DNA from: a virus
DNA length: 64,000 bases
Direction: 5' to 3' (one strand)
IMG/VR virus record: IMGVR_UViG_3300037840_000216
Coordinates: 20,468-84,467 of that record
Positions 1,337 through 40,537 of this stretch are shown here, one piece after another. The position numbers and the translations under genes were made by a program. The notes under the pieces are model-generated. The model did not search any database and was not told where the DNA came from. It saw only the letters and a program-made list of their open reading frames with translations. Position 1 is the stretch's first letter. Every line of letters begins with the position of its first letter.

Positions 1337-1605
1337 GTGATCCTATCTTATCGTTGTGTGGGTTACTGTTCGCTCAGCTTATCAGAGGAGTGGCAACCCA
1401 AGCTACTCGCAACCAAATAAAAATTCCCCCTCCCCCTCCCCCTCCTCTCTCCTCTCGCGCTCTTCTCTCTCCGACCCCCTCCCCAGTATAGCGTACACAG
1501 ACAAACACTAAGTGTTTAGCAAAGGACTTGGGCCTGTTAGACACAGAAAACCGCCGAAGCACGCGCGAGCCCAAGTTGCTACCTCGCCGTGATAAACTTT
1601 CGCCG

Positions 1606-14778: not shown

Positions 14779-15569
14779 TGAAGCTTGACAAAACTCAGAT
14801 CACCAAAAACCTCAGCAAGAAGTATAAGTACGTTCCCTATCTGGAGAAGGCGATTGCCACCTTCGAAGATGATTGGCAGTTCGTCTACACCGAAAAGGAA
14901 CACGACCTATACTGGCACCCTTCCGGTCACTGCATGCCACCTGCGACGGAGCTATACGCCATTGCGCAGGAGCAAGCAGAGCGCGAGAACATCTCGGGGT
15001 CGGTGCGCAAGGCTTTCCAGGTCGGCCACTTCTGGCATCAGTGGCTCCAGTACATTACCCTGCACAAGCTGGAGTTCTGCACCCCAGAGGCTATCGAGCG
15101 CCGCGTCCTGCGTAGCTGGGGAGGCAAGGAAGTTGCCAAGGTAGAAATCACCGAGGCAGGTCTGTCGGCAGGTGACTGGAAGCCTGCTCCCTTCCACGCT
15201 GTGGCAGGATCGGGTGATGTGGCTCCGCTGGAAGCTCCCGGCTGGACTGGCATTGTGGACTACAAGACCATGAACGCCAATAGCTTTGCGCAACAGAGGA
15301 TTCCCGAGCGCTTCAACGCTAAGTATGAGTGTCAGATCAACATCTACATGGACCTCTTTGATCAGGCGCAGGCGATCATCTTGCCGATCAATAAGGACAC
15401 AGGTGATTTCAAGGAGTTTTTGTACGAGCGCAACCAAGACTTGATCGACACTATCTACGAGAAGTGGGAATTCGTGAGCGCATGCATTTCGGCTGAATCT
15501 GCACCTACAATAGATGATGACGGATTCTTCGATATCGATTCTCTCCTCACAGGACCAGTCTCAACGTGA
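14775..15569 (+). CDS. Cas4/RecB-like PD-(D/E)xK exonuclease
   Basis: HPSGHC, G..WH, GSGD, IVDYKT, QINIYM. Confidence 0.75.
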   Translation: MMKLDKTQITKNLSKKYKYVPYLEKAIATFEDDWQFVYTEKEHDLYWHPSGHCMPPATELYAIAQEQAERENISGSVRKAFQVGHFWHQWLQYITLHKLEFCTPEAIERRVLRSWGGKEVAKVEITEAGLSAGDWKPAPFHAVAGSGDVAPLEAPGWTGIVDYKTMNANSFAQQRIPERFNAKYECQINIYMDLFDQAQAIILPINKDTGDFKEFLYERNQDLIDTIYEKWEFVSACISAESAPTIDDDGFFDIDSLLTGPVST

Positions 15570-16059
15570 GTGTCTGATCAAAGATTGTCCGCGCCCTGCC
15601 GTTGCTAAAGGATATTGTGGATCGCATTATGCACGTCTACGGCAGGGACGTAATCTTGAGAATCCTCCGTTGCCCTCTTACGAGCCTCGAACATGTTCGG
15701 TCGAGGATTGTGAGTGGCCTTGTTACTGCCGGGACCTATGTCAACGCCATCATCGCAAATGGCTGACCTACGGTGATCCGTGCGGCGGAAAGCAATATCG
15801 CCAACGTGGCACGGGTAGCTACTACAGTGGTGGATATATTCGTATCGGCCAGCGCGGTCAACATCAACTCATCATGGAAGAAATACTAGGCCGCGCCCTG
15901 TATCCCGGTGAGACCGTTCATCACAAAAATGGCATCAAGGATGATAACGATCCTGATAATCTAGAGCTACGGGCAAAAAATCATGGTCAAGGACAGACTA
16001 TTCCTGATTTGCTAAAATGGGCACGTACAATCATTGAACGTTACGAGGCGACAACGTGA
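15514..16059 (+). CDS. HNH homing endonuclease
   Basis: Two C..C/C..H zinc repeats; H...ME..LGR.L...ETVHHKNG.KDDN...NLE. Confidence 0.9.
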   Translation: MMTDSSISILSSQDQSQRECLIKDCPRPAVAKGYCGSHYARLRQGRNLENPPLPSYEPRTCSVEDCEWPCYCRDLCQRHHRKWLTYGDPCGGKQYRQRGTGSYYSGGYIRIGQRGQHQLIMEEILGRALYPGETVHHKNGIKDDNDPDNLELRAKNHGQGQTIPDLLKWARTIIERYEATT

Positions 16060-17776: not shown

Positions 17777-18262
17777 ATGAGTAAACAAGCTACTACCGAT
17801 AGTCCGTTTACCATGACACCGCAACGGTGGTATGACCTGATGGTTGAGGTGGGTATTACCCGCGAGGATGTCGAGCCAACTTGGGAAAACCACACAGAGA
17901 GAATTGTCGCTGCTCATCTCGTTGGGCCGACGATCATTCCCCCTCAAGAGAGGGATGATTTCCTGATCATCCTGCCTCCGGGTTTCGAGTTGCCCGAGGA
18001 TGAATGGCTTGAGATCGAGAAGCTGTTTGGAGTCGAACGCATTCTAAAGGGATCAACGGTCGTAGGTTGGGTTAACTTGATCAGAGATGATGGCGACGAG
18101 CATCCGAACACTCTACGTATCGGCCAGTTGGTCGGTACGCGCGCTTGCCACAAAGCGAATGTGGACTATGATGGCATCGTGAATGACTACAACATCAATT
18201 GGGATCGTCTGGATAACGATCGCGTCCTGGACGAACAACCGTGGGGTGTTGAGCCCAGATGA
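17777..18262 (+). CDS. Hypothetical protein
   Basis: 161-aa ORF within the operon. Confidence 0.6.
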   Translation: MSKQATTDSPFTMTPQRWYDLMVEVGITREDVEPTWENHTERIVAAHLVGPTIIPPQERDDFLIILPPGFELPEDEWLEIEKLFGVERILKGSTVVGWVNLIRDDGDEHPNTLRIGQLVGTRACHKANVDYDGIVNDYNINWDRLDNDRVLDEQPWGVEPR

Positions 18263-18275
18263 ACGCAGGCTAGTC

Positions 18276-19052
18276 ATGGATGAGATCGAAGCTCAAGAAT
18301 TGGGGGTGTCTGATGAGGAGCGCAGGAAGCGCAAACGCATCCTGGATAAGCGCTCGGGCGCTGATCTCAAGAAGCGCTGGGAGCAAGGTGACCGCGCCGA
18401 ATTGGAGGAGAGGCAGAAGGACGCGGCCCCTCCAGTTATCGTTGAGCCTCGGTGTCACGTATGCCAGAGTCCGTATCGCGAATTCATTGAGGAATCCCTG
18501 GTCAAAGGGCATGCCTACTCGCGCATCGCGAGGCAGATCCCGGCCGATGAGAACGGGCAGCAGATCGACAGACGCTCGATCTCCAACCATCTCAAGGAAC
18601 ACATGGATCTCCAGCGCACGGCGATCCGCGAGGAGCTTGAGGAGGAGGCCAGGGCTATCCAGCAGAATGTAGAAGAGGGCTCGCTAGGTGCGAAAACCGA
18701 TCGCGGGATCTTGAAGGTCCTGGTGGCCAAAGGATTCGATGATGTCCTCAACGGCGTCTCGACTGTCGAACCTAAGGATCTCATCCAGATCATCAAGCTT
18801 CTGAATGAACTGAACAGCGATGCCTCCAACACGCGCGCTGAGGAGAACGAGATTGCCCTACGTACCTTCGTGCGCGCGATTGAAAACGTCTGCTCAGTCG
18901 AGATGATCAAGCAGATCGTGGCCGAGGCAGAACGTATCCGCAACATGGACGATGTTGAGTTCGCCATGGAAGGCATCATCATCCGAGACGATCGTGCGGT
19001 GGTCAAAGCACCGCCGTTGGAACTAGAGGCCAGCGTTGCCGAGGTTGTCTGA
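18276..19052 (+). CDS. Zinc-finger/HTH DNA-binding protein (possibly terminase small subunit)
   Basis: CHVCQ...YSRIARQ...SISNH..EH followed by a helical region. Confidence 0.55.
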   Translation: MDEIEAQELGVSDEERRKRKRILDKRSGADLKKRWEQGDRAELEERQKDAAPPVIVEPRCHVCQSPYREFIEESLVKGHAYSRIARQIPADENGQQIDRRSISNHLKEHMDLQRTAIREELEEEARAIQQNVEEGSLGAKTDRGILKVLVAKGFDDVLNGVSTVEPKDLIQIIKLLNELNSDASNTRAEENEIALRTFVRAIENVCSVEMIKQIVAEAERIRNMDDVEFAMEGIIIRDDRAVVKAPPLELEASVAEVV

Positions 19053-19070
19053 TCGTCTATACTGTAGAGT

Positions 19071-19175
19071 ATGGCCTCGAAAAGAGCTTTTCAGGAAGGC
19101 GAACGGTTTGGTAGTTGGACCTTTTTGCGAGAATTTGAAATTTACCTTGGTCGGGTGGCAAAGTATCGATCATGA
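19071..19175 (+). pseudogene. Internally deleted HNH-type endonuclease stub
   Basis: GERFGSWTFLRE resembles the G..FG.LTV N-terminus of HNH/AP2 endonucleases (cf. 55019); TATACT at 19058 upstream; ATGA-coupled to the helicase. Confidence 0.55.
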
Positions 19176-21115
19176 AATATCACCTCCTTACTGATGGGCT
19201 ACTTGATAAAATCGAAATGCTTTCTCGGGATGAGCAAGAGCGATGGCTTTTCTTGTCCGAGAGCGAGGAGTTCAAAGGCCGTTGGGAAGTAAAAGGAATT
19301 TGGCCAACTTGGTTTTTTGACCTGGAGTCTATTGTGGGCCATTTCCGTACGGTTTCGCCCGCCCGTCTAAAGGATTTCATTGAGGCGTGTGACGATTATT
19401 ATCAAATAGTTTTTGAGACCCCACCAGAGTCAATTTTGACAATATATGAAGATCTACAGAACCCACCGCCTTTTGCGTTGAACTCAAATCTACCCAACAC
19501 CATTCACGGGATGTTTCCGTGGCAAGTAGAAGGCTTCAATCGGCTGATCAAAGATGAATCACTCGGGGCCGGTCTAGCGATCTGGGCCACGGGGGCTGGA
19601 AAGACTGCGTTTCTTGCTTCAGCTATCAAGTGGCATGAAACCGAGGGTCATCCATATGATCTCGCCTTGGTGGTAGTGAAGAAGAATAACAAGATTGATA
19701 TGCAGCGAAAGCTCAAAGCGCTTGCTAATCTCGATTCGTTTGTAGTGATAGGAACACCCACTAAACGCAATGCTGTCTATGACGAAATGTCTGCTCGTCT
19801 AGAGGCAAAGGAAAAAGTCATCCTCGTTACCAATTATGAGAACTTTCGTCAAGACGACGAGGCATTCAAGTGGCTGATGGAAGATCGGGACTGCTTGATC
19901 CTGTGGGATGAGATGCCTACGCGCCTGAGCAACCGTACCACACAAGTTTACGAGGCTGTGCAAAAGTGCCTTTGGAAGACCTTCCAGCCGCGCACAGGGC
20001 TCCCGACGCCTAGACCTAGCTGGATGCGTCAATGGATGCTAACAGCCACTCCGATCGAGAATAGTCCTGAAGGTCTTTTCAACCAAATTAGATTGCTAGA
20101 TCCGACGCTTCTCGGTACTGTTGGGCAATTTGAGTCCAATTACGTAGTCAATCGCAATCCCATTTCACACAAGCCGGAACGATGGGGACGGCTTGATAAG
20201 CTAGAGGGAAAGATTGAGTTCATGACACATCGCGTAAGTTTGGCCGATCCAGAAGTGGCTAAGTTGTTCCCCGAGGTCATGGAGGACACACTGATCATCG
20301 ATTGGGACCCACGGGATCGCGCCATCTACGACATGCTTGCCACAAATGCTGTCAAGATCCTCGAAGAAGAATCAGAGTCAGAAGAATTCAACGTGTTGGC
20401 GCTCATTCAAGTAATGCAGATGATGTGTGATGCGCCTTCAATGATCGGAAAGTCGGCAGAGAACCACAAAGAGTTCAAGAAAGTCCTCGCAGAGCTAGGG
20501 GGAGAAGAAGATGACATGCCGCGTCTTATGAAGGGATCGGAGATTGCTGTACGCCTGGTCGAAACGCTGCGGAAAGCGCCAACCGATGAGCGACACACTA
20601 AGTTTGAGACACTCAAAGAAATCCTCACCGAGAAACATCCCGATGACAAGGTGCTTGTATACATGACTTGGGCCTCTTATGGTTTTGAGCCGATGGAAAA
20701 GAAGCTCAACGAGTGGGGCATCAGCTATGTCGCTTACGCGGGCACAGACAAACAACGCCAGGCGGCTAAGGATGCCTTTCGTGCCGACCCTGACATTCGG
20801 GTCTTCCTATCCAGCGATAAGGGTTCGGATAGCATCGACCTCCCCGAGGCGGCTGTAGGCGTGCATTTCAATCAGCCCTGGACCTGGACTCGAAAGCAGC
20901 AGAGGGAGGGCAGGAACAACCGGGTCGATAGCTTGCTCCCGACTACGTTTTGGTACTCGTTGACGATGGCAGGCTCAGTGGAGGATCGCAAGCAGGAAAT
21001 ACTAGCGACTAAGCGTGGCTATCACGAGGCTCTCTTCGATGGCAAAGCCGCAGAGGACGCGATGGCCTCTAAGCTTTCACGCGAGGATTTGGTCTGGATT
21101 TTGACCGGCTCTTGA
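19172..21115 (+). CDS. SNF2-family (SF2) helicase
   Basis: WATGAGKT, TNYE, WDEM, LTATPIEN, SSDKGSDSIDL, QREGRNNR. Confidence 0.9.
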   Translation: MKYHLLTDGLLDKIEMLSRDEQERWLFLSESEEFKGRWEVKGIWPTWFFDLESIVGHFRTVSPARLKDFIEACDDYYQIVFETPPESILTIYEDLQNPPPFALNSNLPNTIHGMFPWQVEGFNRLIKDESLGAGLAIWATGAGKTAFLASAIKWHETEGHPYDLALVVVKKNNKIDMQRKLKALANLDSFVVIGTPTKRNAVYDEMSARLEAKEKVILVTNYENFRQDDEAFKWLMEDRDCLILWDEMPTRLSNRTTQVYEAVQKCLWKTFQPRTGLPTPRPSWMRQWMLTATPIENSPEGLFNQIRLLDPTLLGTVGQFESNYVVNRNPISHKPERWGRLDKLEGKIEFMTHRVSLADPEVAKLFPEVMEDTLIIDWDPRDRAIYDMLATNAVKILEEESESEEFNVLALIQVMQMMCDAPSMIGKSAENHKEFKKVLAELGGEEDDMPRLMKGSEIAVRLVETLRKAPTDERHTKFETLKEILTEKHPDDKVLVYMTWASYGFEPMEKKLNEWGISYVAYAGTDKQRQAAKDAFRADPDIRVFLSSDKGSDSIDLPEAAVGVHFNQPWTWTRKQQREGRNNRVDSLLPTTFWYSLTMAGSVEDRKQEILATKRGYHEALFDGKAAEDAMASKLSREDLVWILTGS

Positions 21116-21129
21116 TAGCCTGCTATACT
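21101..21129 (+). promoter_or_regulatory. Consensus sigma70-type promoter upstream of the pentamer array
   Basis: TTGACC (21101-06), 17-bp spacer, extended -10 TGnTATACT (21121-29). Confidence 0.75.
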
Positions 21130-21305
21130 CAAACTTCGTAGACGAGAGCTAGGAGATGTGCGCTGACTCTGGAAGTCGGCAGCATCCAAAGCCAAACATA
21201 CAGACAAGAGGTATCGTAATGAATATCGTTCTAGAGATAAAGGGGACCCCTGGGGTCTAAATCCGGGACGCCACCTTGGCGCTTCCCCTTCCGTGAAGCA
21301 ACTGG

Positions 21306-21358
21306 CCACGAGCCGCGCTACCAGCCGCAAAGCAAGGGAGCGCGGCTCGTGGGGTTTT
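21306..21358 (+). terminator. 14-bp perfect hairpin followed by GGTTTT (terminator or RNA-processing stem)
   Basis: CCACGAGCCGCGCT (21306-19) / AGCGCGGCTCGTGG (21339-52). Confidence 0.6.
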
Positions 21359-21381
21359 ACGTCGTCCCCAGCCCCAGCTAC

Positions 21382-21610
21382 GGCATGCAGGGCTCGGTTT
21401 GGCAGGCAGGGCGGAGCAGGGTTCGGTTGGGTCTGGTGAGGCTTGGCGGGCTTGGCTGGGCTGAGTAGGGTTGGGCTCGGTAGGGTTTGGCAGGCTTGGT
21501 TGGCGTGGTAAGGTCTGGTTAGGCACGGCGCGGTTCGGCATAGTTAGGCAGGCGAGGCAAAGCGGTGTTCGGTGAGGCTCGGTATGGCGAGGCTTGGTTT
21601 AGTGAGGCGA
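21382..21610 (+). repeat. GGY-NN pentamer array segmented by GGCA/GGCG; candidate non-coding guide-RNA array
   Basis: About 42 pentamers with constant (G/A/T)G(C/T) and variable NN; 4-nt separators at 21382, 21401, 21445, 21489, 21547. Confidence 0.9.
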
Positions 21611-22573
21611 TTTGCCAAGAAGACCGAGAAGAGCTTCAATGAGGCGTCGATAGTGCCACGTTGGTCTTGCATCGCTAGAGACAGACATCTCGGTTGCGTG
21701 AGCAAAGCGGTGTGTGATTCGAGTTGCTTTATCGACCTCATAGAAGGGCGAAGGTTCCGGGTAAGGCATTGCGGGTCCAATCGTAGCCAATAGTCGTTGA
21801 CGCGATTGCCCTTCACTAACGACTTCGACGGGCAGCGATGGGGCTCGGACCAAGGATCGATTAGGATCGGTAGCGTGGCGCACCATGTTGCGAGTGCGGA
21901 TGGGGACATCGTCTGAGAGGCTCGTGTCTGTAGTCGAGCGGAAGAAGTGGGTGAGGATTGTCGCCCGGTCTGCGGACAGAGCTTTCTCTTCCTCTTCGCG
22001 TATGGGCTCCCCCGCACGAGCGATCCAGACGCGCGTCGGCGTGCCCTCCACGGTCAGTGCGAAGTCCCCCGACGCCTCAGCTTCTTTCCGTTTCGGAGGC
22101 GTTTCGGTGTTGACTCCACGGATGCGTGGGTAGGTGTAGCCGAAGTCCACGAAGACGAGGCTGAGCGTCTTCGAGGTTGACCACTCCCGCCCGAGGGAAT
22201 CGAGCACAGTCAGGCTGATCTCTGTATCCGGGTCGGCGACCTCGTAGGTGTGCGTGACGGTCGGTCCGTGTCCGACATGTCCGTCCCCGAAGTCCCAACG
22301 GTACTCCAGGATGGTGACGCCCGGAGGCGGCTGAACGTGGGGCTGGACTTTGGATTCGACTTCGAATGGTTCCGCGTGGAACTCGACAGCGAGGAACACC
22401 GGGGTCGTGCCCCAGGCGTAGCGGTAGTCGCTGCCTTTGTCACTCGGCAGTGGAGGGTACGGATAGGTGTCGCCGTCGTACGTGGCGCTGCCTAGAGGGC
22501 CTGCCTGTTCGAAGTAGAAGTCTACGGTGACCGGAAGGGCGGGGCGGTTTGGATCGTTGACAATGGAGGTCAT
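21599..22573 (-). CDS. PKD-domain virion protein
   Basis: YRWDFGDG....GPTVTHTY......ISLTV.D PKD motif. Confidence 0.75.
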   Translation of the reverse strand: MTSIVNDPNRPALPVTVDFYFEQAGPLGSATYDGDTYPYPPLPSDKGSDYRYAWGTTPVFLAVEFHAEPFEVESKVQPHVQPPPGVTILEYRWDFGDGHVGHGPTVTHTYEVADPDTEISLTVLDSLGREWSTSKTLSLVFVDFGYTYPRIRGVNTETPPKRKEAEASGDFALTVEGTPTRVWIARAGEPIREEEEKALSADRATILTHFFRSTTDTSLSDDVPIRTRNMVRHATDPNRSLVRAPSLPVEVVSEGQSRQRLLATIGPAMPYPEPSPFYEVDKATRITHRFAHATEMSVSSDARPTWHYRRLIEALLGLLGKSPH

Positions 22574-25089
22574 TAGAACACCGCGATGTTGTGGGTGGCG
22601 TGGTTGCGTAGGCCGTTGCGGTCAATCGTAATCAGCGTGACGGCGTATTCGCCGGGGAGCGAGTAGGTGTGTTCTTCCTGAAGGCTGTTGCCCACCGAAA
22701 ACGCACCATCGCCAAAGTTCCATTCGCGTGTGACGATGGCTCCGGTGCCAGGGGTCGATTCGTCGGTGAACTTGAAGGACCTCGCTTCGATCCCTTTCGA
22801 TTTGAATTGCGCATCCGGGGGAATCAGATCCTCAAGACGTTCCTCTGGCCACACGAGCCGCCCAAGGGAGGCGTAGCGAGGTACGATCTTTGGTGTCTTG
22901 ATGGTGGCGTTCTGGCGCAGCGCTCGGGCGCGTAGCTGAAGTTCCTTGCCACGAGGCTGGAGCAGGATGCCCTTGCGGTTGACGTTGACGATCTCGCGGA
23001 AGTCCGTCCACGGTGCGTAGTTGCTGTCCCATGGGTCGCTGACGGTCGAGCGAGCGCTCCACTGCACGACACGCTCAAAGATGGACACGCTGTCGATCCA
23101 CCAGGTAGAAGCGATCTCGGTGGGCTGAAGGATCTGAACCTGGTAGTTGCCTGTCTGGAGGATCTCTTCTTCCGGCACTCGAATGATGATCTCCTGCCAC
23201 TGGTTCGTTTCGAGTTCTGGCGTCGGCAGCGGGATGATGGTGCCTTCGCTGCTCACGAGGCGCACCGCTATGTTTGGGAACTGTCTCTGGTCGAAGGTGG
23301 TGAAGCCTTTGCTCGGGAAGGTGCCTTTGCTCGGGAAGGTGCGGTGGCGGCTTGGGAAAGTCGGGCGGTGTTTGTCTTCGATGGTTTCCACGGTGCGTGG
23401 TTCGCCCGCGTACCAGATGAAGAACTTGATCTCTGCCTGCTCGAAGTTGCTGAAGTTGATAAAGTCGGTCGTGAGCCCGACGTTGTGTTCAGTGCCATTG
23501 GTGTCCACCCGGAAGCTTTCAGCGGTGAGCGCGCGCGACTTGTCGCGCGAGAGCGTGATGCCTTTAGCCGACGCCGGGGTGATCTTGAAGCCCTGGTTCC
23601 AGAGTTCTTCGTTGCCGGTGTAGCTCGCGAAGAGTTGGGCTCCATCCACGGGCGTAAAGCTGGTGAGAGGAGCGGACTGATACTCGGCGAAGACGACACC
23701 GCGCGGTCGGATCGAGCCGACGTAGGCATCGGGGTCAGGTAGGTATGCCTTCCAGCCAACGCGCCCCTGGCGGCGGCGGAAGACACCATCGTCGTTGACC
23801 AGCGTCGTGTCGAAGATCGGTGTCTGTTCTACGGACTTGTCGGGGGCAAGCTTATAGATGCGCACGCGGGCTCCCGAATCTTCGAGCGAGCAGGTCATGA
23901 GGTATTCGGTGTTGTCGAGCAGTTCAGGGAGAGCATTCGGGCCGTGGTCGGGGAAGACGTAGCCGGGGCTCACCGAGTTGTTCATGATCAGCTTTCGTTT
24001 GCCTTCGCCCCATTGTAGAGTGAAGGTGATCCAACTCTCCTCAATGGGGTTGGCCACAGGTAGACGCTCTAGGTCTTTCATCTTCTCCAGGTGGTCGAAG
24101 CGCGACATGGGCTGTTTGTCGAATTCGCCTACGGTGCGGGGGACGAACTCTTCGGTGCCGAGGTCAGGCTGCGGGTGCCCATCAAGCTCGGACTGTGTGG
24201 TCCCGATGAGGTCAAGCTGCGTCTGGAAGATTAGCGGCTCCTCGCGCATGTAGAAGACGAGTTCGTTCAGGTGTAGCTGTGAGCCAGGGTTGAAGACGAG
24301 GCCGAACTCGGCATCGACCGGCTTGGGGTCGTTGTAGCCAGGTAGGAGGTCTGACTTCCACATGATGCCCTGTTCGAGCAGCGGGCCGCTCGTCACGTCT
24401 CCGTCGAGCGGGTTGGGCTGGCGCAGCATGCCGTTGAAATTGTCGTAGTCCACCGTGGACACCACCCATCCAGGATTGCCTGGCGTGGGAGCGAGGATGA
24501 GCTTAATGCCCATGACGCCCATGTCGGTTTCTTCCCCTTCGTTGCACACGATGGTGAAGCGCACTCCGGTGATGGCTTCGAGGTCGATTTCGTTCTGCTG
24601 CAACGCCGCGCGTTCGATGACGAACTGACTGTCTCCTTCGATCAGCGCTTTGAGGCTCTCCGAGAACGAGAGGGTCGCGGTGACTGCGGTGTTCGAGCAG
24701 TGGCCTGCCGGGTCGGACGTGATTTTGATCCTGCTCTGGACGATGTTGATCGCCGGGAGGTTGAAATCGGGGAGCGCGAATGTGAAGAGGTCCGTGTCCG
24801 CAAAGCCGGTGAGCAGATCGACTGGGTGGTCCGGCGTGGCTGATTCTGTTTCCGTCGTGCCCTTGCATTCCAGAACGAGCGTTGGGAAGTAGTGGAGCGA
24901 CGAGCGGTAGGTGAATGTGCCCTCGGTCCAAGCCTCGCCCGAGGTCGGCACGAACGTGCGCAGATCAACGTGCCGCTGGAACGGCAACTGATCTTTGGTT
25001 TCCACTTCGAACGAGTCGTAGTACATCCACGCTCGCTCTGTGAACTCCTCGCCTAGAGGAACATTGGATCTTTCGCGTTCAAGTGCCAT
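22573..25089 (-). CDS. Minor tail/baseplate protein with C-terminal PKD domain
   Basis: WNFGDG.....HTY..PG.Y.VTL; CBM-like region; TFPS repeats; tail-module context. Confidence 0.75.
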   Translation of the reverse strand: MALERERSNVPLGEEFTERAWMYYDSFEVETKDQLPFQRHVDLRTFVPTSGEAWTEGTFTYRSSLHYFPTLVLECKGTTETESATPDHPVDLLTGFADTDLFTFALPDFNLPAINIVQSRIKITSDPAGHCSNTAVTATLSFSESLKALIEGDSQFVIERAALQQNEIDLEAITGVRFTIVCNEGEETDMGVMGIKLILAPTPGNPGWVVSTVDYDNFNGMLRQPNPLDGDVTSGPLLEQGIMWKSDLLPGYNDPKPVDAEFGLVFNPGSQLHLNELVFYMREEPLIFQTQLDLIGTTQSELDGHPQPDLGTEEFVPRTVGEFDKQPMSRFDHLEKMKDLERLPVANPIEESWITFTLQWGEGKRKLIMNNSVSPGYVFPDHGPNALPELLDNTEYLMTCSLEDSGARVRIYKLAPDKSVEQTPIFDTTLVNDDGVFRRRQGRVGWKAYLPDPDAYVGSIRPRGVVFAEYQSAPLTSFTPVDGAQLFASYTGNEELWNQGFKITPASAKGITLSRDKSRALTAESFRVDTNGTEHNVGLTTDFINFSNFEQAEIKFFIWYAGEPRTVETIEDKHRPTFPSRHRTFPSKGTFPSKGFTTFDQRQFPNIAVRLVSSEGTIIPLPTPELETNQWQEIIIRVPEEEILQTGNYQVQILQPTEIASTWWIDSVSIFERVVQWSARSTVSDPWDSNYAPWTDFREIVNVNRKGILLQPRGKELQLRARALRQNATIKTPKIVPRYASLGRLVWPEERLEDLIPPDAQFKSKGIEARSFKFTDESTPGTGAIVTREWNFGDGAFSVGNSLQEEHTYSLPGEYAVTLITIDRNGLRNHATHNIAVF

Positions 25090-38290: not shown

Positions 38291-40537
38291 CTAACCTTTA
38301 GAAGGAGGGAAATAGGCTTCATTTCTGTGAGCCTGTTCAAATAGCTTCTTATTTGCTTGGACTTCTCCTGGCAGACCCGTACTTGGTTGCGCCGCCTGGC
38401 TGGCCGTAGACTTGCCTCCCGCATTGGCTTCTTCCTTAGGAGACTTTGCATTCGGGAATTGAAGTTTGAACCACTTTTCGGCATTAGGACTTAGCACGAT
38501 TTCAGCCTTTGCTTCTTCTGACCTTTCCGGTTTCACTTCGGCGATCTTGGAGAGAGCTGCGGTGATGTTCTTGACCTGCTTTTCAGGCGATTCCATCATC
38601 CACTGCTTGAGTTCTCCGTGCTTCTCTAGGCCAGCTTCTTTGGCTCGTTCATAGAGGCCGCCCTTACCCGCTAGTGCTTCAACAACATGATCTTCCTGGT
38701 TGACGTTGAGAGTTCCTTCACCCGCCGCCCCGCGCTTTGCCTTTATCAAGGCTGTTTCTTTGCGGCCAAGGTCTTCCATCTGACCTTCGTTTAGCTTTCC
38801 ATATTCACCTTCGCCTTGTTTTTCACCTTCCTTTTTGAGTTTTTGTAGATGCGCAATTTCTGGCTCAAGCTTGAAAACCGCATGGGTATTTTTTCCATAT
38901 GCCTCATTTTCATGACGCTTCTGTGAAATAAATGCGCTCAGTTGATTGGCTTTGTGCTGTGCGCTCGCGGCGGCTTCCATGTGCGGCCCGATCTGGAGCA
39001 TGCGCTTCATGTATTCCGTCGTCAGGTTCGGTTCAAGCTGGTGCATCATCGCGAGCTTGGCCGCTTCGGCGGAGATCGTTTCCGTTTCACCGTATTTGTT
39101 TGTCGTCGTGACTGCTTTGCCTGGGCCTGCGATTTCCGCAAGCTGCCTGACGGCGGCGTAGGCGTTAGTCGATGACTGATTACCGGTCATAGATGTGATC
39201 TGCCACGGCAGCACGCCTTTCTGTGCGGCCTGTACTTTGCCGAACGTACCTTCGTTCGCAGCCTGGGTGAGAAGCGGGTTGATGCCCGTGTTCTTCCAGA
39301 TTTCGTTGTAGGCATGCGCGCCGTGGATCATGGTCGAGCCGCCCTCAACGGTCTTGGCCGCGAAGTCTTCCATGCCCTGCGTCACTTCTTCGAGCGTTTT
39401 GTGCAAGACCTTCACCGCTTCAGGAAGCTGTTCGAGCGTCTTCGTGAGTTCTTGCGGTGTCGCCTGACCTAGCTTGAGCGCGTTTGTCCACGAGCCAAGT
39501 TGCTCAATGGAAGTTGGGCTGTTAAAGCCCATCTTGACGAGCGGTTCGAGTGTCTGCGCGAGTGTCTCTTGCTGGCCACCAACGGTGAAGCCAAGCGCGC
39601 CCCCGCTGCGCTGGTTGGTCCAGCCCTGTGAGGCCAACGCCTGGCGTAGGTTGCTGGCTTCTCCGAGCCCGATGCCCGTGCCACCAAACGCCGCTTCGGC
39701 GGCATTCACGACGGTGCCAAGACCTTGTTTGGCGGCAGGGCTTGTGAATGCAGCGATCGGGTTCGGAATGCCAAGGATGTGGCTCGCGCCAAAGACACCT
39801 TCGCCCTGTGGCGTGTAACCCAAAGAGGCTCCCATGTGGGACGCGCCAAAGCCGATGTCGAGCATGGGCTGGAATATCTTTTTGTGAAGCAGGCTGGCTT
39901 CGGCGATCCTAGATGCTCCGCCTTCAAATCTCTGAGCTAGGTTGCTCGCCGCGAGCGGTCCCTGCTGCTGCTGCCATTCCTCGGGGCTCAGTGGTTCTTC
40001 TTCGTTCGAGAGCGCTTCAGAGGCGTAGCTACCGTACTGTTTCGTTGCCCTTCGTCCTGCTGCCCGTGCGGCCTCACGAAGGAGCGTGTCAACCTGCCAC
40101 TCACCGAATTGGGGGATCTTGAAGCCTTCCTTGGCAATTGTGGACGCTTCTTGGTTTGTCCGTCCGGCAATCGGGCTCCCTGCGTCGGGCGCTAGGCCTT
40201 CGTATCCCGGACGTGCTGCTCCCTGCTGACCCAAGAATCGTTTCCACGCTGAGTCGGCCTTTTCCGGCGTCGAGCTATCCGGGCTCAACTGGCCTGGCTC
40301 GGCAGTCCCGATGGTCGCTCCCGGTCCCGCCTGCGAGATGAACTTTCTAAGGAGGTCAGAGGGGTCGCGTTCTTCAAGGCCAAGATCGCTAGCTCGTTTC
40401 TTCTGGATGAGCGCAAGCTCCATCGTGGGAGCAGTAAGTGCCTGGATATGTTCGTCCAGTTGGAGCATCACAACCCGCAACTGATCATTTGCGCGTCGTT
40501 GTGACTGTGCGGGGTCGAGATCGTCGTTGGTTGCCAT
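38291..40537 (-). CDS. Tape measure protein (probable)
   Basis: Ala/Gly/Gln-rich helical ORF directly after the tail chaperones. Confidence 0.7.
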   Translation of the reverse strand: MATNDDLDPAQSQRRANDQLRVVMLQLDEHIQALTAPTMELALIQKKRASDLGLEERDPSDLLRKFISQAGPGATIGTAEPGQLSPDSSTPEKADSAWKRFLGQQGAARPGYEGLAPDAGSPIAGRTNQEASTIAKEGFKIPQFGEWQVDTLLREAARAAGRRATKQYGSYASEALSNEEEPLSPEEWQQQQGPLAASNLAQRFEGGASRIAEASLLHKKIFQPMLDIGFGASHMGASLGYTPQGEGVFGASHILGIPNPIAAFTSPAAKQGLGTVVNAAEAAFGGTGIGLGEASNLRQALASQGWTNQRSGGALGFTVGGQQETLAQTLEPLVKMGFNSPTSIEQLGSWTNALKLGQATPQELTKTLEQLPEAVKVLHKTLEEVTQGMEDFAAKTVEGGSTMIHGAHAYNEIWKNTGINPLLTQAANEGTFGKVQAAQKGVLPWQITSMTGNQSSTNAYAAVRQLAEIAGPGKAVTTTNKYGETETISAEAAKLAMMHQLEPNLTTEYMKRMLQIGPHMEAAASAQHKANQLSAFISQKRHENEAYGKNTHAVFKLEPEIAHLQKLKKEGEKQGEGEYGKLNEGQMEDLGRKETALIKAKRGAAGEGTLNVNQEDHVVEALAGKGGLYERAKEAGLEKHGELKQWMMESPEKQVKNITAALSKIAEVKPERSEEAKAEIVLSPNAEKWFKLQFPNAKSPKEEANAGGKSTASQAAQPSTGLPGEVQANKKLFEQAHRNEAYFPPSKG

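What the first reader, a model, noticed from the sequence alone, without database searches (positions are those of the whole stretch)
20816..21600. Array unit 4 encodes the adjacent helicase motif with wobble bases skipped; the phage's own copy escapes by Ser/Leu recoding
Seen: U4 NN = GA AA GG TC GA TC AT GA TT. Helicase codons at 20816-20842 = GAT AAG GGT TCG GAT AGC ATC GAC CTC (DKGSDSIDL). Seven of nine dinucleotides equal codon positions 1-2 exactly. The two mismatches are TC vs AGC (both Ser) and TT vs CTC (TTR and CTC both Leu), the rare synonymous changes that alter positions 1-2. Of the last three dinucleotides only the 11th (GA/GAG) matches. My rough estimate for 7/9 exact by chance is ~0.02 per unit over both strands of the window, before counting codon phase, adjacency and the synonymous mismatches. 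Inference: guides read DNA as NNx-NNx, are blind to third-position drift, and target a conserved essential motif of competing related phages while the carrier is protected by recoding. This would be phage-versus-phage interference or a homing drive for the helicase-linked locus.
Basis: partly seen in the sequence, partly recalled or inferred. Interest (0 to 1): 0.97.

Follow-up and report, generated by a model that had tools for sequence, protein, structure and literature searches.

The report
Solo VIPR guide beside helicase target
A soil phage carries a stand-alone array of VIPR guide RNAs (a CRISPR-like, wobble-skipping system published in 2026), and one guide spells a conserved helicase motif the way sister phages write it, while the phage's own helicase gene next door differs at a few codons.

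Summary
Unit 4 (21551-21605) matches helicase codons at 20816 in 7 of 9 dinucleotides (8 of 11 in the natural unit), and this is the best hit in the window.

At the nucleotide level it is only marginal: 34 of 2000 shuffles reach it. Counting Ser and Leu codon families as equal, it is 10/11, reached by 0 of 20,000 shuffles and by none of 114 foreign guides.

The tract is a VIPR vrRNA array of the "staggered" kind, a class published in three 2026 bioRxiv preprints. They describe GGY/NN guides, a 1-nt skip at the wobble base and inter-phage targeting.

No vipr gene lies on the 84-kb contig (53% complete), so it meets the papers' definition of a "solo" array.

The predicted TCN/TTR allele exists. 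Metagenome relative L148 matches 9/9 and 10/11 (20/22 bases), six other relatives' loci match 19/22, and the phage's own copy 17/22, under the papers' 80% cut-off.

"Escape by recoding" is only descriptive, because such codon-family swaps are common in this gene family. A homing drive has no support. Units 1-3 have no identifiable target.

This scan has noted the same "solo guide beside its own resistant target copy" pattern on other DNA. Verdict: a real, neat new member of a known kind.

The parts
19172..21115 (+). SNF2-family helicase gene (647 aa), a core replication gene syntenic in all relatives
   Evidence: ORF. Pfam Helicase_C E=6.2e-13, SNF2-rel_dom E=4.3e-08, ResIII E=1.9e-05. Homologs of 59-82% identity in 13 loci.
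20816..20848 (+). Target-like site: 11 codons DKGSDSIDLPE inside the Helicase_C domain. I recall this as SF2 motif V; that name comes from no call. It is the phage's own, mismatched copy of the protospacer of unit 4.
   Evidence: 8/11 dinucleotides and 17/22 bases equal to unit 4. 10/11 at amino-acid level, 0 of 20,000 shuffles. The peptide is invariant in all 13 relatives' loci.
21101..21129 (+). Sigma-70-like promoter match (TTGACC-17-TATACT with TG) overlapping the helicase stop
   Evidence: 10 of 12 matches, 1 found against 0.2 expected in shuffles. A consensus match only.
21219..21260 (+). 13-codon mini-ORF (MNIVLEIKGTPGV*) in the leader. Not shown to be a vipr remnant.
   Evidence: Translation. 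The Vipr HMM against the three + strand frames of 21116-21400 gives negative bit scores.
21306..21361 (+). Perfect 14-bp hairpin (arms 21306-21319 and 21339-21352, 19-nt loop) followed by GGTTTT. It looks like a terminator and lies between the promoter-like site and the array.
   Evidence: Sequence. The stem is present in both the MFE and the centroid fold. The simple scan missed it because its loop limit is 8.
21382..21609 (+). VIPR vrRNA array, G-rich strand is +. About 45 GGY-NN pentamers with 4-nt junction units (GGCA/GGCG) at 21401, 21445, 21489, 21547 and 21606, i.e. the 'staggered' architecture. The only such tract on the contig.
   Evidence: parse; unique in G000, none in G001-G003. 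GGCA junction spacing is 5k+4 nt in 79 of 84 intervals in other arrays.
21405..21448 (+). Unit 1: 8 NN (AG GG AG TC TG CT GA TT) plus junction GGCG
   Evidence: No significant target.
21449..21492 (+). Unit 2: 8 NN (TT TG TG AG TG TC AG TT) plus junction GGCA
   Evidence: No significant target.
21493..21550 (+). Unit 3: GGCTT, a 4-nt GGTT, then 9 NN (GT AA CT TA AC GC TC AT TA) plus junction GGCA
   Evidence: No significant target.
21551..21609 (+). Unit 4, the guide in question: 11 NN (GA AA GG TC GA TC AT GA TT TT GA) at 21551-21605, then GGCG. Three scaffold triplets are degenerate (AGC, TGT, AGT). Its last 11 bases overlap the 3' end of the convergent gene.
   Evidence: The junction-to-junction interval is 59 nt = 4 + 11x5, a spacing seen 8 times in other arrays.
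21599..22573 (-). Convergent PKD-domain protein gene (324 aa), the first of the minus-strand late or structural genes
   Evidence: ORF. Pfam PKD_4 E=2.7e-08. Syntenic homologs in relatives.

Best explanation
The tract at 21382-21609 is a stand-alone ('solo') staggered array of VIPR guide RNAs, transcribed from the + strand. It was inserted at the junction between the replication genes and the convergent structural genes of a roughly 170-kb soil phage. In VIPR (published), Vipr protomers hold each GGY and present each NN. The NN pairs with the target strand while every third target base, usually the codon wobble base, is skipped, and bound genes are silenced. Unit 4 is a guide of 11 NN whose protospacer is the invariant DKGSDSIDL(P)E motif of the SNF2 helicase as written in sister phages (both Ser as TCN; Leu as TTG in the L148 lineage). 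In a mixed infection it would direct a Vipr protein to silence the rival's helicase. That protein would come from the unassembled half of this genome or from another element. The carrier's own helicase, 566 nt upstream of the array, mismatches at three units (AGC, CTC, CCC). Shown here: the array and its unit structure, the non-random guide-to-motif relation, the better fit to relatives than to self, and the absence of vipr on the contig. Taken from the papers: the skip-code mechanism and silencing. Inferred: expression, the Vipr source, that 77% spares self, and any effect on fitness.
For: Class: the 8-unit GGYNN pattern finds at least 120 IMG/VR loci. 84 of these 120 carry an ORF matching my HMM of array-adjacent proteins. 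The profile of 30 such ORFs matches PDB 36pp_D 'SUSP1 Vipr protein' at E=1.6e-39. Staggered units: GGCA junction spacing is 5k+4 in 79 of 84 intervals elsewhere, and the window's intervals are 44, 44, 58 and 59 nt. Guide-target relation: 10/11 at amino-acid level, 0 of 20,000 shuffles, with 114 foreign guides reaching at most 8/11. The same 10/11 is reached by 0 of 1000 shuffles in each of G001, G002 and L139-L148. In 1.06 Mb of unrelated VIPR loci the best base-level hit of unit 4 is 16/22. Better fit to relatives: L148 20/22 (9/9, 10/11); L001, L139-141, L143 and L144 19/22; own 17/22. So 7 of 13 relatives' loci pass the papers' 80% rule and self does not. Register: the skipped base is the wobble base and the match is in frame, as published. 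Solo status: no Vipr by HMM (best E=0.061, a 57-residue stretch in a 264-aa ORF with no Pfam match), none by the genome search (0 of 4 records), and hhalign of 66 ORFs gives at most 3.5% probability. Paper 3 defines solo as no Vipr on the contig or none within 20 kb, and reports 346 VIPR-null phages with solo vrRNAs whose self-match scores are lower than their non-self scores.
Against: No vipr on the contig, and neither vipr nor an array in the complete 167,869-base relative G002, so the source of the effector is unknown. No RNA data. A terminator-like hairpin lies between the only promoter-like site and the array. Three of the 11 scaffold triplets of unit 4 are degenerate. At base level the self hit alone is weak (0.017 to 0.07 per unit). 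Units 1-3 have no target in the contig, the relatives, 1.06 Mb of VIPR loci or IMG/VR exact scans. Unit 10 (TT against CCN) mismatches in every relative. The exact 9-NN pattern has 0 hits in IMG/VR and only chance-level hits in prokaryote genomes (18 found, none in a helicase). The perfect 9/9 allele is seen in one lineage only. The relatives' better fit is not independent of the self hit, because the peptide is invariant. The own copy keeps 5 consecutive matched units, and paper 3 shows a six-unit footprint at work, so self-sparing is unproven. Guides of other VIPR loci show no such match to their own flanks: 155 guides scored no better than controls.
Confidence: 0.6

Rival explanations
1. 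Decaying relic. The array is what is left of a former VIPR locus whose vipr was lost. It is no longer expressed or used, and the unit 4 match is a fossil of past targeting.
For: No vipr on the contig. Degenerate scaffold triplets and irregular 4-nt units. A terminator-like hairpin upstream. Units 1-3 have no target. Paper 3 documents vipr-vap1 deletions that leave solo vrRNAs.
Against: Runs of up to 8 perfect GGY-NN units remain. The guide still fits living alleles at 19-20 of 22 bases. The Vipr HMM finds no gene remnant in the leader. The published view is that solo vrRNAs are functional, though for phage-borne ones the authors say a fitness benefit is still to be determined.
Confidence: 0.15
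2. Self-regulation. Unit 4 directs Vipr to the phage's own helicase gene (8 of 11 units paired) to turn down an early gene late in infection.
For: The site is 566 nt from the array, in frame, with 5 consecutive matched units plus 2 more. A six-unit footprint is functional in SUSP1. If G.U pairs are allowed, the own copy pairs at 10 of 11 units.
Against: Relatives fit better than self. The papers report no self hit at 80% or more and lower self than non-self scores for solo guides. Array-less relatives manage without it.
Confidence: 0.1
3. Decoy or sponge. The solo vrRNAs soak up or redirect a rival's Vipr complexes, as F5 satellite vrRNAs do. What they spell matters little, or they point to decoy sites.
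For: Paper 3 shows satellite solo vrRNAs redirecting phage Vipr to host decoy sites (abstract). Units 1-3 have no phage target.
Against: This does not explain why unit 4 spells an invariant helicase motif at 10/11. No host genome is known in which to look for decoy sites.
Confidence: 0.08
4. Coincidence. The match between unit 4 and the helicase is chance, picked out after scanning four units over 128,000 positions.
For: The base-level shuffle rate is 0.017 (9 NN), 0.052 (12 NN) and 0.07 (11 NN, whole contig) per unit. The amino-acid-level score was chosen after seeing the data. Another 18/22 hit in G002 (position 40445) looks like chance.
Against: 0 of 20,000 shuffles and 0 of 114 foreign guides reach the amino-acid-level score. 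The hit is in frame with the skip at the wobble base, in the adjacent gene. A natural allele fits at 20/22.
Confidence: 0.04

Closest known systems
Solo (orphan) vrRNAs of VIPR-null SUSP1-family phages and of F5 satellites (bioRxiv 10.64898/2026.10.15.759431; abstract and sections 6, 8, 9, 17, 25 read, plus term searches)
   Same: A GGY-NN array with no vipr on the contig, which is the paper's own definition of solo. It is carried by a phage. The guide fits non-self better than self. The skip base aligns with the wobble base of a conserved coding motif.
   Different: The published solo guides target vipr genes, other vrRNAs or satellites (plus a class left unassigned) in Enterobacteriaceae phages and carry pseudoknot tails. 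Here the host is unknown (soil), the array is tail-less and staggered, and the target is a core replication helicase of sister phages. The carrier's own, mismatched copy lies next to the array. A Vipr-bearing partner has not been found; the one complete relative has none.
VIPR systems with staggered vrRNA arrays (bioRxiv 10.64898/2026.04.26.720920, fig. S18 legend; mechanism in 10.64898/2026.04.26.720927, section 6 read)
   Same: Alternating GGY/NN units, 8-11 per guide here against 9-16 published. Units abut with a 1-nt overlap (4-nt junction GGCA) and have no 3' tail. The 1-nt skip rule fits in frame.
   Different: No adjacent vipr or vap gene. I could not see the figure itself, only its legend, so the match to 'staggered' rests on the legend and on my own spacing counts.
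CRISPR mini-arrays carried by viruses and aimed at related viruses (recalled from the literature; no call made)
   Same: A guide array without effector genes on a virus, aimed at close relatives, relying on an effector supplied in trans.
   Different: Contiguous spacers, repeats and PAM logic. VIPR uses a gapped code, and self is told from non-self only by mismatches.

Membership tests
VIPR vrRNA array | Tandem 5-nt units GG[C/T]NN, at least 4 units (the callers in papers 1 and 3) | tested here: met
   about 45 units at 21382-21609; runs of 6 or more perfect units at five starts, and nowhere else on the contig. Eight consecutive perfect units at 21502-21541.
VIPR vrRNA array | GGY conserved while NN is hypervariable | tested here: met
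   the scaffold is GGC or GGT in most units while the NN differ from unit to unit.
VIPR vrRNA array | Such arrays sit beside a Vipr (RAMP) gene as a class | tested here: met
   84 of 120 IMG/VR loci found by the repeat pattern carry a Vipr HMM hit. The profile hits PDB 36pp_D 'SUSP1 Vipr protein' at E=1.6e-39.
Complete VIPR system (vipr + vap + vrRNA) | A vipr gene next to the array in this genome | tested here: not met
   HMM best E=0.061, not credible. The genome search found 0 of 4 records. hhalign of 66 ORFs gave at most 3.5% probability. No remnant in the leader. The contig is only 53% complete.
Complete VIPR system (vipr + vap + vrRNA) | An accessory vap gene | not tested
   No vap models were at hand. 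The neighbouring helicase is a syntenic core gene in array-less relatives, so it is unlikely to be a vap.
Solo vrRNA (paper 3) | [quoted passage not shown] | tested here: met
   Definition. The array lies at contig position about 41.9 kb, with more than 41 kb on each side and no Vipr.
Staggered array architecture | Guides abut with a 1-nt overlap and have no tail | tested here: inconclusive
   There are 4-nt junction units at 21401, 21445, 21489, 21547 and 21606, with the same 5k+4 spacing in 79 of 84 intervals elsewhere. Only the legend of fig. S18 could be read, and there are no RNA ends.
VIPR guide with a natural target | At least 80% of NN bases match under the 1-nt skip rule, with the skip at the wobble base | tested here: met
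   Unit 4 against L148 is 20/22 (91%). Against L001, L139-141, L143 and L144 it is 19/22 (86%), in frame. Units 1-3 do not meet it.
VIPR guide with a natural target | No self hit at 80% or more | tested here: met
   The best self hit of unit 4 is 17/22 = 77%. It would be 15/18 = 83% if only the first nine NN counted.
VIPR vrRNA array | Expressed, processed and bound by Vipr; represses its target | not testable with these tools
   No listed holder run is on record as RNA.

The most novel reading that the evidence does not exclude
The solo guide and the mismatched copy of its own target, 566 nt apart, form a linked 'weapon plus antidote' cassette. In mixed infections the guide silences the helicase of sister phages that write the motif with TCN serines, while the linked AGC allele is immune. 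The pair would then spread as a unit, drive-like, through a phage population. If rU.dG pairs are tolerated, L148- and L001-type alleles pair at 11 of 11 units, and the single Ser554 TCN-to-AGC swap is all that protects the carrier. That would show that VIPR's published 'escape needs amino-acid change' logic has a synonymous loophole at six-fold degenerate codons. Notes of this scan describe similar guide-beside-resistant-copy pairs in at least 8 other genomes (unchecked leads).
Probability: 0.2. Interest if true: 0.7.

Novelty: new member of a known kind. Interest (0 to 1): 0.42.

Why it matters
The class and its code are already in print, so the finding does not open a new field. It does add three things.

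- **A new target class.** It is a clear natural case of a VIPR guide aimed at an invariant catalytic-core motif of a core replication gene of sister phages. In the main texts I read, targets are satellites, prophage regulators, vipr genes and other vrRNAs.
- **How self is spared.** With no PAM, only a few codon-level differences separate the carrier's own gene from the target. One of them is a Ser TCN/AGY family swap, which changes both read bases without changing the protein. The preprints argue that the skip code makes silent escape impossible. Six-fold degenerate codons are a testable exception.
- **Linkage.** The guide sits beside the resistant allele, which suggests selfish, linked inheritance.

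It also shows that solo VIPR arrays occur in large uncultured soil phages far from the Enterobacteriaceae systems studied so far.

Tried and rejected
- **RNA families and standard repeat tools.** Rfam at gathering thresholds gave 0 matches in the window. There are no tRNA genes. Tandem Repeats Finder did not report the array.
- **My first ideas.** I considered a TRAP-like ring-binding RNA, a rut site, or an ori or pac element. I dropped these once the repeat pattern turned out to flank Vipr genes in IMG/VR.
- **Coding tail.** The minus-strand ORF 21257-21541 (94 aa) is an artefact of the C-rich strand and has no homolog.
- **vipr remnant in the leader.** The 13-codon ORF looked to me like a Vipr N-terminus, but the HMM gives negative scores.
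- **Window-specific ORF 17777-18262 as a divergent Vipr.** hhalign probability is 0.2%.
- **Second 5-nt-periodic site.** The hit at window position ~1402 is a plain CT-rich tract.
- **DNA similarity to deposited phages.** None found.
- **Exact 9-NN pattern of unit 4.** There were 0 hits in viral contigs. The 18 hits in genome contigs are all outside helicases, about what I calculate for chance (17).
- **Exact scans for units 3, 1 and 2.** These gave 1, 6 and at least 120 hits, with no common gene. 87 of the 120 unit 2 hits have stop codons in both readings.
- **Units 1-4 against 1.06 Mb of VIPR loci, including vipr genes.** Nothing above shuffles.
- **Excess codon-family switching at the target serines.** Not significant: 6 of 15 invariant Ser columns are mixed, and I calculate about 0.14 for both target serines being mixed.
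- **Self-flank matches as a general habit of VIPR guides.** Not seen: 155 guides scored against their own flanks did no better than against 465 control pairings.
- **The 18/22 hit at G002:40445.** Only 7 of 11 units match, and I judged it chance.
- **Sequencing runs.** No RNA holder is listed. Two soil DNA runs hold the stretch, and one may be the source. Their contigs are identical to the window where they cover it. One run has no cover at 21412-21545.
- **Homing drive.** No nuclease is linked to the array. The HNH ORF at 15514-16059 is 5 kb away and was not examined further.
- **Limits.** Supplementary files of the three preprints are closed. Their target tables could already list helicase targets or guide-beside-target pairs.
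Full report
**What is there.** The window is the last 64 kb of an 84,467-base IMG/VR virus record that CheckV rates 53% complete. It carries a plus-strand replication block: DnaB-like gene, Pol III alpha, RecA, a sigma factor and an SNF2 helicase at 19172-21115. This block converges on minus-strand structural genes that begin with a PKD-domain protein at 21599-22573.

Between the two blocks lie 483 bases that the relatives lack. They hold four features:
- a sigma-70-like promoter match at 21101-21129;
- a leader with a 13-codon ORF;
- a perfect 14-bp hairpin followed by GGTTTT at 21306-21361;
- a G-rich tract of about 45 GGY-NN pentamers at 21382-21609.

The tract is the only one on the contig. 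Its 5-nt rhythm is broken by 4-nt units (GGCA or GGCG) at 21401, 21445, 21489, 21547 and 21606. These cut it into units of 8, 8, 9(+1) and 11 NN.

**Checking the observation.** The match is 7 of 9 and 8 of 12 dinucleotides, or 8 of 11 in the natural unit, which is 17 of 22 bases. It is the single best hit in the window.

34 of 2000 NN-order shuffles reach 7/9 somewhere in the window, and 104 of 2000 reach 8/12. For the 11-NN unit over the whole contig, 7% of 300 shuffles reach 17/22. With four units examined, that would not be convincing.

I scored each NN by the amino acids that its NNx codons encode. Unit 4 then fits DKGSDSIDLPE at 10 of 11 positions (9 of 9 for the first nine). That was reached by 0 of 20,000 shuffles (11 NN) and 1 of 20,000 (9 NN). 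114 real 11-NN guides from 65 other arrays reach at most 8 of 11 on this contig. The relation between unit 4 and this helicase motif is therefore not chance.

**What the tract is.** Many hold arrays of several hundred bases. In 84 of the 120 loci an ORF matches an HMM that I built from array-adjacent ~200-aa proteins ending in G-x-G-[DE]-[FWY]-R-P...G-x-F. A profile of 30 of them matches PDB chain 36pp_D, 'SUSP1 Vipr protein', at E=1.6e-39 over its whole length.

A full-text search then found the literature. VIPR systems are described in three 2026 bioRxiv preprints:
- 10.64898/2026.04.26.720920. I read the Results, Methods sections 18, 20, 26 and 27, and term searches.
- 10.64898/2026.04.26.720927. 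I read the abstract and section 6.
- 10.64898/2026.10.15.759431. I read the abstract, sections 6, 8, 9, 17 and 25, and term searches.

They establish the following:
- vrRNAs are 9-16 YNNGG repeats.
- Vipr holds the GGY and presents the NN.
- Targets are read NN-skip-NN, with the skipped base usually at the wobble position.
- Binding silences transcription.
- Natural targets are competing phages, satellites, prophage regulators, vipr genes and other vrRNAs.
- 'Staggered' arrays exist in which guides overlap by 1 nt.
- Hundreds of phages and satellites carry 'solo' vrRNAs without vipr.

The window's 4-nt junctions fit the staggered description. In other IMG/VR arrays, GGCA-to-GGCA distances are 5k+4 nt in 79 of 84 intervals. 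The unit 4 interval is 59 nt, which is 4 + 11x5.

**No effector here.** I found no Vipr on the contig by three methods:
- The HMM gave a best E of 0.061, for a 57-residue stretch in a 264-aa ORF. That ORF has no Pfam match and I do not consider it a Vipr.
- The genome search with the profile found a match in 0 of 4 records.
- hhalign of 66 non-overlapping ORFs gave at most 3.5% probability.

The leader holds no recognisable remnant. By paper 3's own rule (no Vipr on the contig, or none within 20 kb) this is a solo array. However, nearly half of the genome is unassembled. The complete 167,869-base relative G002 has neither a vipr nor any run of four GGY-NN units.

Helicase relatives of 59-82% identity were found in 3 IMG/VR loci and 10 metagenome loci. 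All are syntenic where enough flank is held, and none has an array. The peptide DKGSDSIDLPEA is invariant wherever the contig covers it; L146 ends after DKGSDSIDL. Only the Ser and Leu codon families vary.

| Loci | Match to unit 4 |
|---|---|
| L148 (the closest relative, 82% in the C-terminal half): GAT AAG GGC TCA GAT TCA ATT GAT TTG CCC GAG | 9/9, 10/11, 20/22 bases |
| L001, L139, L140, L141, L143, L144 | 19/22 |
| L002, L003, L142, L145, L147 | 17/22 |
| L146 | cut off after nine codons |
| The window's own copy | 17/22 |

So 7 of 13 relatives' loci pass the papers' 80% rule and the carrier's own copy (77%) does not. These better fits are not independent evidence, because the peptide is shared.

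**How far 'escape by recoding' holds.** On a helicase tree the deeper-branching sequences (L147, L144, L002, L143) carry TCN at Ser554 and CTN at Leu557. By parsimony the window's AGC is a derived change. Its CTC is simply the ancestral state, and the guide's TT follows a derived TTG of the L148 lineage.

AGC at Ser554 is also found in L142 and L146, which have no array in the flank held. Codon-family swaps are common at this divergence. 6 of 15 invariant Ser columns and 18 of 31 invariant Leu columns are mixed. There is therefore no statistical sign that the target codons were driven to change.

One further observation is my inference. Unit 9 of the own copy (TT against CT) and unit 10 everywhere (TT against CC) are differences that an RNA U could bridge with a G on the target strand. 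Allowing G.U pairs, L148 and L001 pair at 11 of 11 units. The own copy pairs at 10 of 11, and the Ser554 AGC codon is then the only block. The main texts I searched say nothing on mismatch or G.U tolerance.

**What remains open.**
- Units 1-3 have no significant match in the contig, the three relatives' records, the metagenome relatives, 1.06 Mb of VIPR loci or exact IMG/VR scans. Guides of 8-9 NN are too short for such searches.
- Expression could not be examined, because no RNA run is listed.
- The terminator-like hairpin upstream of the array leaves its promoter unknown.

**Comparison and verdict.** It works like, and by the tested features is, a solo staggered VIPR vrRNA array. It is not a complete VIPR system, since the vipr feature was tested and not met on this contig.

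Relative to the main texts I read, two things are new:
- the target class, a core replication helicase of sister phages at an invariant motif;
- the arrangement, in which the guide sits 566 nt from the carrier's own mismatched copy, with a silent Ser family swap among the differences.

Notes of this scan report VIPR arrays in at least 405 other genomes, and the same 'solo guide beside its resistant target copy' pattern in at least 8. These are unchecked leads and not support. I rate this a real and tidy new member of a known kind, of moderate interest, with a bolder linked weapon-and-antidote reading that is open to a simple reporter test.

Noticed in passing
L148:3913-4857: The closest relative's helicase is interrupted in frame by a ~315-aa insertion that starts with Cys after GLFN and ends with ...VINN before Cys. 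This is the look of an intein. The window's helicase has none.
   Followed up: partly
L148:5864-6532 and the window's 21116-21598: The junction between the helicase and the convergent PKD gene seems to be an insertion hot spot. In L002 the two genes abut. The window holds the 483-base leader plus array. L148 holds other DNA, including a 222-aa minus-strand ORF.
   Followed up: partly
window 1425-1485: A 60-base polypyrimidine (C/T-only) tract in the intergenic region after the ORF that ends at 1336. It came up as the second 5-nt-periodic site but is not a GGY-NN array.
   Followed up: no
window 15514-16059: An HNH endonuclease ORF (Pfam HNH_3, E=9.9e-10) inside the replication block. It has no syntenic counterpart in G001 and only a distant copy elsewhere in G002, so it is probably a mobile homing-type gene.
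   Followed up: no
window 19172-21115 against L148: The helicase is mosaic relative to L148: 72% identity over residues 2-306 but 82% over 304-646, the half that holds the target motif. This might reflect recombination near the array.
   Followed up: no
window 17777-18262: A 161-aa ORF with no homolog in G001-G003 or L148, in a gap that the relatives also have. It is not Vipr-like.
   Followed up: partly
window 23305-23342: An exact 18-base tandem duplication (2.1 copies) inside the 851-aa PKD-domain protein gene.
   Followed up: no
window 19000-23000: A second soil metagenome, from a different study, holds contigs identical to this phage over most of the stretch. The phage is therefore not a one-sample assembly product.
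   Followed up: partly
L006:490-2130 (minus strand): In this IMG/VR locus, blocks of about 12 GGC-NN units alternate with a conserved ~50-nt hairpin element. This is a different VIPR array architecture from the window's. Paper 1 mentions ribozyme-interspersed arrays, and I did not test whether this is one.
   Followed up: no
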